A stretch of DNA of 64,000 bases from the human T2T-CHM13v2.0 reference genome, Homo sapiens, in NCBI RefSeq assembly GCF_009914755.1, contig NC_060932.1; one strand, written 5' to 3'. Positions 50,073 through 55,331 of this stretch are shown here, piece by piece (positions within the stretch are counted from its first letter, which is position 1; each line of letters starts with the position of its first letter). The notes under the pieces were generated by a model that saw nothing but the letters and a program-made list of their open reading frames with translations, was not told the DNA's origin and did not search any database. A program made the position numbers and the translations under genes.

Positions 50073-50135
50073 CACATCACCTTTCTCTCCCTTAGGTCCA
50101 GGAGCGCCAACCGGCCCAATGGCTCCTATGTCTCC
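50073..50135 (-). CDS. COL22A1: COL22A1 exon, 63 bp (GDIGAIGPVGAPGPKGEKGDV)
   Basis: cctcag|GGA GAC ATA...GAT GTG|gtgagt; 7 Gly-X-Y triplets. Confidence 0.96.
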
Positions 50136-50591
50136 CTGAGGGGTTGAGACCAGAGACAAGCATCAGATTAGGTTTCCCGACAGGGCTCTTGCACACACAG
50201 GACCCTCACGGCCAACCTTGCTCCAATTCCCTAGAAGCAGCTGACTTCATCTTTGCCATTTCTGCAACGAGGCCACATGTCCCACCCCTGGAGAGGAGGA
50301 AGCATCTAAGTCATCTCCCAACATCACAATTCCAGGAACCACGGACTTCTTGAGGAAAGCAAGTGCATGAAAGCATTGCACATTCATCCTTGGGAATGGC
50401 CTGCCACTGATCCCACCACCAGGGCCTCGGAAGGGGAAGTGGAAGTTCCAGGTTTGAACAGCAGCTCTGCCACTTCCCAGGAGCACACCATTACTGTCTT
50501 TGGGCCTCAGGCTTCTCTTCCATAAACAGGCACGTCATCACGCAGGCACATAAGATTAAGAGCATAAAGGTGCTTTGAAAACTTCCAAGTG

Positions 50592-50653
50592 TCCCATCCA
50601 AGTACTAACCAGGCCCGACCCTGCTTAGCTTCCGAGATCAGACGAGATCGGGC
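50592..50653 (-). pseudogene. 5S rRNA fragment (nt 27-88 of the human 5S sequence), retrocopied
   Basis: Reverse complement is GCCCGATCTCGTCTGATCTCGGAAGCTAAGCAGGGTCGGGCCTGGTTAGTACTTGGATGGGA, identical at 62/62 positions to 5S rRNA as recalled. Both ends of the RNA are missing. Confidence 0.95.
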
Positions 50654-50750
50654 ATGGCACATGTATACATATGTAACTAACCTGCACAATGTGCACATGT
50701 ACCCTAAAACTTAAAGTATAATAAAAAAATAAAATAAAATAAAATAAAAC
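50652..50750 (+). mobile_element. Young L1 (L1PA2/L1HS pre-Ta-like) extreme 3' end plus A-rich tail, fused to the inverted 5S fragment
   Basis: gcatggcacatgtatacatatgtaactaacctgcacaatgtgcacatgtaccctaaaacttaaagtataata followed by (TAAAA)n. TSD aaaacttccaagtgtc at 50578-50593 and 50751-50766. Confidence 0.93.
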
Positions 50751-51898
50751 AAAACTTCCAAGTGTCAACCAGAGTCCCCTGGGCATTCAATTTGTATAAC
50801 AAGTCCATCCCTGTGTACCTGGGGCCCTCATAACTGTCCAGGAGGAGAAAGAGAGCAGGTAGAGGAAAAAACTGTGTCTGCAAGGGAGGAAAAACTCATC
50901 ACAAGCCAAGTGTTGAACTGGAACCTAAATCTCCTGCCATCTCATGAGCCAATCCAAGATAGGTGTAGGCACAGGAAACAGAGCCTTCAATTCTATTCTT
51001 TTGTCTTTGTTCTTGATCTGAAACTTTATCTCTCTTGTTCCCAGCTCATCTTTTATATTCTAAGAACACATGGCTACTTTGCTTATGCTATTCCCTTTGG
51101 CTATGATGCCCTTCCCTGCCTCCTTTGTCCTGAGCAGTTCCTGTCTATTCTACTGGACCCAGCTGGTCAGGGCTGTCAGCAGAAAGGTGTCCTGAGGTCC
51201 TACCAGGTAGCAATGGGGCCTCCCCTCTCAGCCCCTCAGCTCCTGGGCCCCTCTATCCTGACTCTCTTCATACTATCCCAATCCTCTCTTTCCTGCTCCC
51301 TTCCCCCTGGCCTATGAGTCCTGGGGACCAGGCTCTCAGTCAGTCACTTTTATATTCCCACATCACAACTGGGCCTTGCACCTGGCAGACTCAGCCTATG
51401 CATGTGGACAGAGCCCGAGCTCTGTGTAGGGACACGGAGCCACCAGGAACCCCAGCCTTTGACTCAGGGTCCTAACCATGGTTTGGGACAATGTGACGGA
51501 TGACACTATAGGACCACGATTGCAAGTGAGCTCTGCAGGAGCCGGGCAGGTCTCCAGGTGGCTGCATCAGTTGCCCTTTTCAGTGCTCTTCTCCTCCCAC
51601 CATTTCTGCTCTCCTTGTGGGGCCCAGGGCCTGCTCTGCTCAAGCACAGCAGAGGCAGCCATTACTAAACAGCCCTTGCTTCACACAAATGTCTTCTACT
51701 GAGAGGCCTATGAAACCCCAGGTAGTTTGCGCTTTCCTCCCGTCACAGCCGAGAATCGAGGTGACTTCTCAGAGGAGCTCGGTGATGCAGAAACCCCTGC
51801 CATCCTCCTCACAGCGACCAGCTGGCACCTGGGCTGAGCCGCTCTCCATCAGCACAAAGAGAAGACTCACCAGGGGAGAGGAGCTGAGGGGGCAGCGG

Positions 51899-55286: not shown

Positions 55287-55331
55287 CTTTGGACCAGGGA
55301 GCCCCATGGGGCCAGCAACTCCCATTTCACC
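55287..55331 (-). CDS. COL22A1: COL22A1 exon, 45 bp (GEMGVAGPMGLPGPK)
   Basis: ttttag|GGT GAA ATG...CCA AAG|gtcagt; 5 Gly-X-Y triplets. Confidence 0.96.

What the first reader, a model, noticed from the sequence alone, without database searches (positions are those of the whole stretch)
50578..50766. Young chimeric retroinsertion: INVERTED 5S rRNA fragment fused to an L1 3' end inside one perfect TSD
Seen: a 16-bp TSD (aaaacttccaagtgtc), then 62 nt antisense to 5S rRNA nt 27-88, then ~70 nt of L1 3' terminus, a (TAAAA)n tail and the TSD again. The 5S part has no mismatches to the recalled sequence and all 4 CpGs are intact. The L1 part has young diagnostics (cacaatgtgcac, actaacctg). The 5S/L1 junction shares GC, and the target end gtgtc matches 5S antisense gtctc at 4 of 5 positions. 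Established: classic small-RNA/L1 chimeras such as U6/L1 are co-oriented and start at the RNA 5' end, while L1 twin priming yields inversions with junction microhomology. Inference: the second-strand nick primed reverse transcription on a different RNA (5S), i.e. twin priming in trans, in a single recent event that may be human-specific or polymorphic. Such trans events may already be reported as a class; I cannot tell whether this locus has been described.
Basis: partly seen in the sequence, partly recalled or inferred. Interest (0 to 1): 0.8.

Follow-up and report, generated by a model that had tools for sequence, protein, structure and literature searches.

The report
Known inverted 5S rRNA/L1 chimeric insertion
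An intron of COL22A1 holds a small, well-preserved retro-insertion in which a backwards piece of 5S ribosomal RNA is joined to the tail end of an L1 element, and both this locus and this kind of insertion have already been published.

Summary
A perfect 16-bp target-site duplication (50578-50593 and 50751-50766) encloses 157 bp. These are 60 nt antisense to 5S rRNA, 69 further nt of L1 3' end, and an A7(TAAAA)4C tail. The 5S identity to the chr1 5S genes is 62/62 (nt 27-88); its last 2 nt lie in the duplication. All 4 CpGs are intact. Both junctions carry microhomology: 2 nt (4 of 5) at duplication/5S and 2-3 nt at 5S/L1. The junction occurs once in T2T-CHM13.

It is not new. Law and Burns 2026 (PMC13174262) list 27 5S/L1 chimeras, 23 of them antisense, and propose twin priming. 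Their Supplementary Table 2 contains this exact locus (hg38 chr8:138803380-138803533, L1PA2, same duplication, EN motif yes, co-arrival supported by alignment).

What I add is small. The priming site lies in 5S loop D. Three sister loci share both breakpoints (nt 22-27 and 88-91). This is the catalogue's only L1PA2 case.

Whether it is human-specific or polymorphic could not be tested. hg38 and CHM13 both carry it at the same length.

The parts
50574..50581 (-). L1 endonuclease target. The top strand reads tttg/aaaa and the bottom strand 5'-TTTT/CAAA-3'. The first-strand nick that primed on the poly(A) tail falls here.
   Evidence: Sequence read. Listed as cleavage site TG/AAAA, 'EN motif: Yes', in Law and Burns Table S2.
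50578..50593 (+). 5' copy of the 16-bp target-site duplication AAAACTTCCAAGTGTC. Its 3' end (gtgtc) is the inferred second-strand primer.
   Evidence: 100% identical pair, spacing 173. The same duplication is printed for hg38.
50592..50653 (-). Fragment of 5S rRNA, nt 27-88, antisense to the L1 part, 62/62 identical to the chr1 5S genes. 50592-50593 overlap the duplication (microhomology GA/tc). 50652-50653 (perhaps 50651-50653) overlap the L1 part.
   Evidence: 100% over 62 nt to 38 chr1 array copies; alignment to antisense 5S from L014; Rfam RF00001, minus strand, 26.4 bits, below threshold.
50652..50722 (+). L1 3' terminus in sense orientation, 5'-truncated to about 71 nt. RepeatMasker calls it L1PA2 according to the published table, where it spans window 50652-50734 after conversion from hg38.
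   Evidence: 39 of the 40 scored hits are L1 3' ends aligning from query position 91-92; identical to L004 and L010 over the body; L1PA2.
50723..50750 (+). A-rich tail, A7(TAAAA)4C, 28 nt.
   Evidence: Sequence read. Similar (TAAAA)n or (TAAA)n tails are seen on other L1 copies (L007, L010).
50751..50766 (+). 3' copy of the 16-bp target-site duplication.

Best explanation
This is a single L1-driven chimeric retro-insertion made by twin priming in trans.

1. L1 ORF2p nicked the bottom strand at 5'-TTTT/C. The T-run annealed to the poly(A) tail of an L1 (L1PA2-type) RNA, and about 70 nt of L1 cDNA were made.
2. The top strand was cut 16 bp downstream.
3. Its 3' end (...GTGTC-3') annealed to a different RNA, 5S rRNA, at nt 87-91. 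The two terminal bases paired with G87 and A88 in the unpaired loop D.
4. It primed a second cDNA that ran from nt 86 down to nt 27.
5. The 3' ends of the two cDNAs then annealed through GC or GGC and were filled in and sealed.

The product is duplication - antisense 5S(88-27) - L1 3' end - A-tail - duplication.

Shown here: composition, orientation, duplication, microhomologies, and uniqueness of the junction. Inferred: the order of the steps, the enzyme, and that the template was whole 5S rRNA rather than a fragment.

The insertion is an inert intronic passenger in COL22A1. The L1 part is antisense to the gene and the 5S part is sense to it. It lies about 460 bp from the exon at 50073-50135. 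I saw no sign of function.
For: - One perfect 16-bp duplication encloses both parts, with no second duplication.
- The target is TG/AAAA, scored as an EN motif.
- The 5S part is 62/62 identical to the active chr1 genes and inverted relative to the L1 part.
- The duplication's 3' end matches the next 5S bases at 4 of 5, including the terminal 2.
- The 5S/L1 junction shares 2-3 nt and carries no filler.
- nt 87-90 are an unpaired tetraloop, and nt 27-28 are unpaired, in the minimum-energy fold of the 5S gene sequence.
- A 39-mer across the junction, allowing up to 3 mismatches, occurs once in CHM13.
- These are the signatures given for twin priming by Kojima 2010 (PMC2912911, passages read). TSD length there peaks at 14-16 bp. 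Only 28 of 605 5'-inverted L1 lack 5' microhomology, and about 70% have 2-5 bp. Extra nucleotides are rare.
- Three sister loci fetched from CHM13 have antisense 5S nt 25-88/91, 22-89 and 25-91. Their terminal microhomology to the duplication is 0, 2 and 3 nt.
- In 16 of the 19 antisense catalogue rows with a TSD of 7 bp or more, the annotated 5S interval overlaps the upstream TSD (coordinates).
- Law and Burns list this locus as a chimera whose two parts arrive together in the multi-species alignment (found_by_close_proximity = 1, found_by_msa_prediction = 1). They propose twin priming for antisense chimeras.
Against: - No experiment or de novo event shows ORF2p priming on 5S rRNA. The paper itself says little is known about reverse transcription of 5S rRNA.
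- The microhomologies are short. One of the four loci examined (L024) has a terminal mismatch.
- The TSD/5S overlap count rests on RepeatMasker intervals that tolerate mismatches, and it has no matched control.
- Law and Burns raise 'targeted processing' of 5S as a reason for the recurrent truncation points. The sequence cannot tell a pre-cut fragment from internal priming on intact RNA.
- I could not inspect orthologous empty sites myself.
Confidence: 0.85

Rival explanations
1. Template switching during first-strand synthesis. ORF2p copied about 70 nt of L1 RNA, then jumped to a template of antisense 5S polarity (a 5S cDNA, an antisense transcript or 5S rDNA) and copied it before the 5' end was joined.
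For: Template switching is an accepted route to L1 chimeras (passages of Law and Burns). The 2-3 nt shared at the 5S/L1 junction would also suit a jump.
Against: It needs an antisense 5S template that is not known to be available. Law and Burns state that template switching and RNA ligation give co-oriented parts and that twin priming gives opposite orientation (Figure 7 legend). The 4-of-5 match between the duplication's end and 5S nt 87-91 is explained by priming from that end. The same applies to the TSD/5S overlap in 16 of 19 antisense catalogue rows with a TSD of 7 bp or more.
Confidence: 0.07
2. Retrotransposition of a pre-formed chimeric RNA, for example a read-through transcript from a locus where an antisense 5S pseudogene already lay just upstream of an L1 3' end.
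For: L1 3' ends carry their own polyadenylation signal, so any transcript running into one can be retrocopied. This rests on general knowledge, not on a call.
Against: The junction 39-mer, with up to 3 mismatches allowed, is found only at this locus in CHM13. In one search none of the 39 non-self hits (40 scored of 693 candidates) extends into the 5S part. The 5S part is identical to the active genes rather than to a decayed pseudogene. Similar but independent junctions at sister loci (5S ends at nt 25, 22 and 25, joined to different L1 positions) point to a recurring process, not a master copy.
Confidence: 0.05
3. Two separate events: a short L1 insertion with its duplication, and a later or earlier insertion of a 5S fragment exactly at its 5' edge.
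For: None found.
Against: Only one duplication pair encloses both parts, and it abuts the 5S piece on one side and the tail on the other. The published alignment-based test scores the two parts as arriving together (method read).
Confidence: 0.02

Closest known systems
Antisense 5S rRNA/LINE-1 chimeric insertions (Law and Burns 2026, Cell Genomics, PMC13174262; 5S/L1 chimeras first reported by Buzdin et al. 2003, known to me only from that paper's reference list)
   Same: It is one of them. Supplementary Table 2, sheet '5S', lists L1 chr8:138803451-138803533:+ (L1PA2) with 5S chr8:138803380-138803450:-, TSD AAAACTTCCAAGTGTC on both sides, size 16, cleavage TG/AAAA, EN motif Yes. The antisense orientation (23 of 27), the truncated 5S and the upper breakpoint near position 90 are all typical.
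   Different: - It is the only L1PA2 entry, so the youngest subfamily in the list; two entries are L1PA3.
- The 5S piece stops at nt 27 instead of reaching nt 1-3. The paper calls reaching nt 1-3 the common form. Four of the 23 antisense rows, this one included, start at nt 22-29.
- RepeatMasker's '5S:29-102' in the table overstates the piece, because the alignment runs 13 nt into the duplication. The exact identity is nt 27-88.
L1 twin priming / 5'-inverted L1 (Ostertag and Kazazian 2001, recalled and cited through; Kojima 2010, PMC2912911)
   Same: An inverted 5' segment, a direct 3' segment with an A-tail, a 16-bp duplication, microhomology at the 5' junction and at the inversion junction, and no filler.
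   Different: In classical twin priming both primers anneal to the same L1 RNA. Here the second template is a different RNA, 5S rRNA.
U6/L1 (and U3/L1) chimeras made by template switching or RtcB RNA ligation (Moldovan et al. 2019, PMC6789731: search listing only; Garcia-Perez 2007 and Doucet 2015: reference list only)
   Same: A small non-coding RNA copy sits at the 5' end of a 5'-truncated L1 inside one duplication at an EN site.
   Different: U6 is full-length and in sense orientation in 98.3% of cases, and U3 is sense in 95.5%. Here the RNA piece is internal (nt 27-88) and inverted, which those mechanisms do not produce.
Tail-less, 3'-truncated retro-pseudogenes of small RNAs (tailless tRNA retrocopies mentioned in Kojima 2010)
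   Same: Priming by annealing of a nicked DNA 3' end to an internal, unpaired stretch of a structured RNA. L013 (chr5) is a sense 5S nt 1 to about 90 copy without an A-tail, flanked by GAGAAAGTGC, whose GAGA coincides with loop D.
   Different: Those are first-strand events that give sense copies with no L1 part. Here the internal priming is on the second strand and sits beside an ordinary L1 first-strand cDNA.

Membership tests
5S rRNA/LINE-1 chimeric insertion | A 5S-derived segment directly abuts the 5' end of an L1 segment. | tested here: met
   5S nt 27-88 at 50592-50653 and L1 from 50652, with no gap.
5S rRNA/LINE-1 chimeric insertion | One target-site duplication encloses both parts, with an EN-type target and an A-tail. 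| tested here: met
   A 16/16 duplication, the target tttg/aaaa and the tail A7(TAAAA)4C. The table says EN motif Yes.
5S rRNA/LINE-1 chimeric insertion | Both parts are present or absent together across species (contemporaneous arrival). | not testable with these tools
   No primate genomes are held here. The published table scores it 1 for both the manual-MSA and the predicted-MSA columns (method).
L1 twin priming (classical, in cis) | The 5' segment is inverted relative to the 3' poly(A)-bearing segment inside one TSD. | tested here: met
   5S on the minus strand, L1 and tail on the plus strand.
L1 twin priming (classical, in cis) | Microhomology between the TSD 3' end and the start of the inverted segment, and at the inversion junction. 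| tested here: met
   2 nt exact (4 of 5) at TSD/5S. 2-3 nt at 5S/L1. Reference frequencies.
L1 twin priming (classical, in cis) | Both segments are copied from the same L1 RNA. | tested here: not met
   The inverted segment is 5S rRNA, 62/62 identical to the chr1 genes. So this is the trans variant of the mechanism, not a classical 5'-inverted L1.
U6/L1-type sense chimera (template switch or RNA ligation) | The small RNA is co-oriented with L1 and starts at its nt 1. | tested here: not met
   Antisense, nt 27-88 only.
5S rRNA gene (Rfam RF00001) | Reaches the family's gathering score as a full-length 5S. | tested here: not met
   26.4 bits against gathering 38. The flanks are forced into the model. 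Only 62 of 121 nt are present.

The most novel reading that the evidence does not exclude
The locus may be the youngest surviving antisense 5S/L1 chimera, possibly human-specific. Read with its sister loci, it suggests that the recurrent '90' and '46' truncation points of 5S in such chimeras are priming sites and not RNA cleavage sites.

On this view the free top-strand 3' end anneals by 2-6 nt to an unpaired loop of intact 5S rRNA (loop D, GAGA, nt 87-90 here). The cDNA often stalls at nt 22-27, in the loop B region. The same loop-D annealing would also make tail-less sense 5S pseudogenes such as L013.

That would turn 5S/L1 chimeras into a natural read-out of how L1 second-strand ends find templates.
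Probability: 0.35. Interest if true: 0.35.

Novelty: already known. Interest (0 to 1): 0.15.

Why it matters
The finding matters little beyond being a clean textbook specimen. It shows, with no substitutions to blur the junctions, what a trans twin-priming product looks like, and it is the youngest 5S example in the published catalogue. It could serve as a reference case. It could also serve as a marker locus if it proves lineage-specific or polymorphic. The recurrent breakpoints and junction microhomologies seen here are a modest refinement of the published hypothesis, favouring internal priming in loop D over prior cleavage. Nothing suggests an effect on COL22A1.

Tried and rejected
- Source copy elsewhere in the genome. 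A 39-mer across the junction with up to 3 mismatches finds only this locus. A 231-nt query finds only L1 3' ends beyond self (40 of 693 candidates scored, so weaker partial copies could be missed).
- An ancient 5S-derived SINE or a decayed pseudogene as the origin of the 5S piece. Rejected, because the piece is 62/62 identical to the active array.
- Own subfamily typing of the L1 part. I compared it with nine L1 copies. The body is identical to several of them, but about 70 nt carry no diagnostic that I could tie to a tool-derived reference, so 'L1PA2' rests on the published RepeatMasker call.
- Dating.
  - There are no substitutions in about 161 nt (129 nt of insert without the tail, plus 2 x 16 nt of duplication).
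  - At the 0.17% per Myr used by Law and Burns, this gives P(no change) of about 5% at about 11 Myr and about 17% at 6.5 Myr (my arithmetic).
  - The sister loci show 3 substitutions (L1PA3), 7 substitutions plus 1 indel (L1PA7) and 10 substitutions (L1MA3) in their 5S parts.
  - So the insertion is young, but whether it is human-specific is not resolved.
- Insertion time point. I looked for it in the four held supplement files of PMC13174262 and found none for this locus. mmc1, mmc6 and mmc7 (PDFs) could not be read and may hold it.
- Ostertag and Kazazian 2001 is not held.
- By hand, from the table's TSD strings and the 5S sequence, I estimated exact terminal microhomology of 2 nt or more in about 13 of the 19 antisense rows with a TSD of 7 bp or more. 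This is my reading and not a computed result. It was verified at sequence level for four loci only (2, 0, 2 and 3 nt).

Full report
**What is in the sequence**

Reading 50400-50950 and scanning it for direct repeats gives exactly one family. It is AAAACTTCCAAGTGTC at 50578-50593 and 50751-50766, 16/16 identical, with a start-to-start spacing of 173. By my arithmetic about 3.5e-5 such pairs are expected by chance in 551 bp. Between the two copies lie 157 bp.

The window turned out to be searchable within its own assembly, which the hub names T2T-CHM13.

- A 71-nt query over the left part, minus strand, matched 38 copies of the chr1 5S rDNA array at 100% over query positions 8-69. That is window 50653-50592, 62 nt. 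Forty of 633 candidates were scored; the other two were the locus itself and a chr5 pseudogene.
- I read a genuine 5S gene from one array copy (L014) and aligned it. The match is 5S nt 27-88, antisense on the + strand.
- The last two of these bases (G87, A88) are the final 'tc' of the 5' duplication. So 60 nt of 5S lie inside the duplication, not 62.
- The four CpGs of this stretch are all intact.
- Rfam's 5S model finds the place on the minus strand only below threshold (26.4 bits against 38, E 0.0075), as expected for half a molecule.

A 231-nt query across the whole element (40 of 693 candidates scored) gave the locus itself plus 39 L1 3' ends, all aligning only from query position 91-92 (window 50650-50651) onward.

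- Side by side, the 69 nt at 50654-50722 are identical to several of those copies, for example L004 and L010.
- The tail is A7(TAAAA)4C (50723-50750).
- Five of the seven longer copies read ...CCGGCATGG at the point where this element reads ...TCGGGCATGG. One reads CCAGCATGG and one CTGGCATGG. The 5S and L1 parts therefore share 2 nt (GC) or 3 nt (GGC).
- That sample is biased towards G, because the hits were chosen by similarity to the query.

**One event or two, copied or made here**

Only one duplication pair exists. It touches the 5S piece on one side and the A-tail on the other. The pre-insertion target reads tttg/aaaa, that is 5'-TTTT/C on the bottom strand, a near-consensus L1 endonuclease site.

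A 39-mer across the 5S/L1 junction, with up to three mismatches allowed, occurs once in the 3.1-Gb assembly. So no source locus with a ready-made junction is present there.

**Mechanism**

The geometry is that of twin priming, as summarised by Kojima 2010 (PMC2912911, passages read).

- The bottom-strand nick primes on the poly(A) tail.
- The top-strand nick, 16 bp away, leaves a 3' end (...GTGTC) that anneals to an RNA and primes a second cDNA. That cDNA ends up inverted at the 5' side.
- The two cDNAs join at a short complementarity.

The difference is that the second template here is 5S rRNA and not the L1 RNA.

- The duplication end GTGTC matches antisense 5S nt 91-87 (GTCTC) at 4 of 5 positions, including the terminal two.
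- In the minimum-energy fold of the 5S gene sequence, nt 87-90 (GAGA) form the unpaired loop D, and nt 27-28, where the cDNA ends, are also unpaired.
- Kojima reports that only 28 of 605 5'-inverted L1 lack 5' microhomology, that about 70% have 2-5 bp, that TSD length peaks at 14-16 bp, and that filler bases are rare. This locus fits on every count.
- RNA ligation and first-strand template switching give co-oriented parts (Law and Burns, Figure 7 legend). They would need an antisense 5S template to explain this structure.

**It is already in print**

A full-text search for 'twin priming', '5S rRNA' and 'chimeric' found four papers holding all three terms, of which two were listed. [quoted passage not shown] I read its outline, sections 9, 10, 18 and part 1 of the Methods, passages found by term, and Supplementary Table 2.

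The paper states several things.

- The truncations cluster at positions 46 and 90 (loops C and D).
- 20 of 27 have 7-17 bp TSDs and 14 lie at the EN motif.
- Antisense bias 'may indicate twin priming'.

Sheet '5S' of the table contains this locus:

| Field | Value |
|---|---|
| L1 | chr8:138803451-138803533:+, L1PA2 |
| 5S | chr8:138803380-138803450:- |
| TSD | AAAACTTCCAAGTGTC at 138803377-392 and 138803550-565 |
| TSD size | 16 |
| Cleavage | TG/AAAA |
| EN motif | Yes |
| Found by proximity with clear MSA | 1 |
| Found by MSA prediction | 1 |

- The hg38 spacing (173) equals that in the window, so hg38 and CHM13 carry the insertion at the same length.
- By the Methods, the last two columns mean that the L1 and the adjoining segment are present or absent together across the aligned mammals.
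- The table gives no insertion time point for the row. The PDF supplements could not be read.

- From the table I count 23 of 27 chimeras as antisense. This is the only L1PA2 entry; two are L1PA3 and the rest are older.
- RepeatMasker's '5S:29-102' for this row overshoots, because the alignment runs 13 nt into the duplication. The exact identity is nt 27-88.
- Four of the 23 antisense rows have a 5S piece running from about nt 22-29 to about nt 89-102. I fetched the other three in CHM13 and aligned them.

| Locus | L1 subfamily | 5S nt | Changes in 5S part | Exact terminal microhomology to TSD |
|---|---|---|---|---|
| This locus | L1PA2 | 27-88 | 0 | 2 nt |
| L024 (chr11) | L1PA3 | 25-88/91 | 3 substitutions | 0 nt (2 of 3) |
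| L026 (chr8, 9.86 Mb) | L1PA7 | 25-91 | 7 substitutions + 1 indel | 3 nt |
| L025 (chr17) | L1MA3 | 22-89 | 10 substitutions | 2 nt |

- The substitution counts form a gradient that matches the order of the subfamilies.
- Both breakpoints recur, although the L1 partners are joined at quite different L1 positions. These are therefore independent events.
- Across the 19 antisense rows with a TSD of 7 bp or more, the annotated 5S interval overlaps the upstream TSD in 16. The overlap is at least 2 nt in 15 and at least 3 nt in 12. This measure is crude, tolerates mismatches and has no control.
- Taken together, this favours annealing of the top-strand end to 5S loops as the origin of the 'truncations'. 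Prior cleavage of 5S, which the paper raises as a possibility, is not excluded.

**Age**

There is no substitution in about 161 nt (129 nt of insert without the tail, plus both duplication copies). At the 0.17% per Myr used by Law and Burns, the chance of no change is about 50% at 2.5 Myr, about 17% at 6.5 Myr and about 5% at 11 Myr (my arithmetic).

The interrupted tail argues for some age or for quick microsatellite growth. 'Young' is supported. 'Human-specific or polymorphic' is open, because no ape or pangenome sequence can be searched with these tools.

**Context and function**

The insertion sits in the COL22A1 intron between the exons at 50073-50135 and 55287-55331 (hub annotation), about 460 bp from the nearer exon. 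The L1 part is antisense to the gene. The 5S fragment lacks both ends of the RNA and scores below the Rfam threshold. I see no evidence of function.

**Verdict**

Both the class and this very locus are already catalogued, so novelty is nil and interest is low. The refinements above are incremental.

Noticed in passing
L013:1468-1573 (G000 chr5, about 35.05 Mb): A sense-oriented 5S copy, nt 1 to about 90, with no A-tail. It is flanked by a perfect 10-nt direct repeat GAGAAAGTGC. The GAGA of the downstream copy coincides with 5S loop D (nt 87-90). It looks like a tail-less retro-pseudogene primed internally in the same loop that served as the second-strand priming site at the COL22A1 locus.
   Followed up: partly
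L024, L025, L026 (G000 chr11 about 104.26 Mb, chr17 about 71.88 Mb, chr8 about 9.86 Mb): Three catalogued antisense 5S/L1 chimeras share both 5S breakpoints with this locus (lower end nt 25, 22 and 25; upper end nt 88-91), although they are joined to different L1 positions and subfamilies. The paper's text stresses pieces that reach nt 1. This sub-class of about nt 25-90 (4 of 23 antisense rows) is not singled out there.
   Followed up: partly
L005 (G000 chr20 about 64.14 Mb) and L009 (G000 chr1 about 177.02 Mb), around position 1450-1600 of each locus: Two other very short L1 3' ends begin within a few bases of the same L1 position (...GGCATGGCAC) as the L1 part here. One sits directly behind an Alu-like A-rich end. 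This could be a preferred truncation or joining point, or simply a selection effect of the query.
   Followed up: no
window 50574-50676: Rfam's 5S model reports this fragment only under the permissive E-value threshold (26.4 bits against gathering 38). It also forces unrelated L1 and flank bases into helix I. A gathering-threshold scan would therefore miss such chimeric fragments.
   Followed up: yes
window 50723-50750; L007 and L010 tails: The A-tail has become a (TAAAA)4 microsatellite ending in C just before the duplication (aaaac|aaaac). Similar TAAAA or TAAA arrays sit on other L1 3' ends. I did not examine whether these arise after insertion or are copied from source tails.
   Followed up: no
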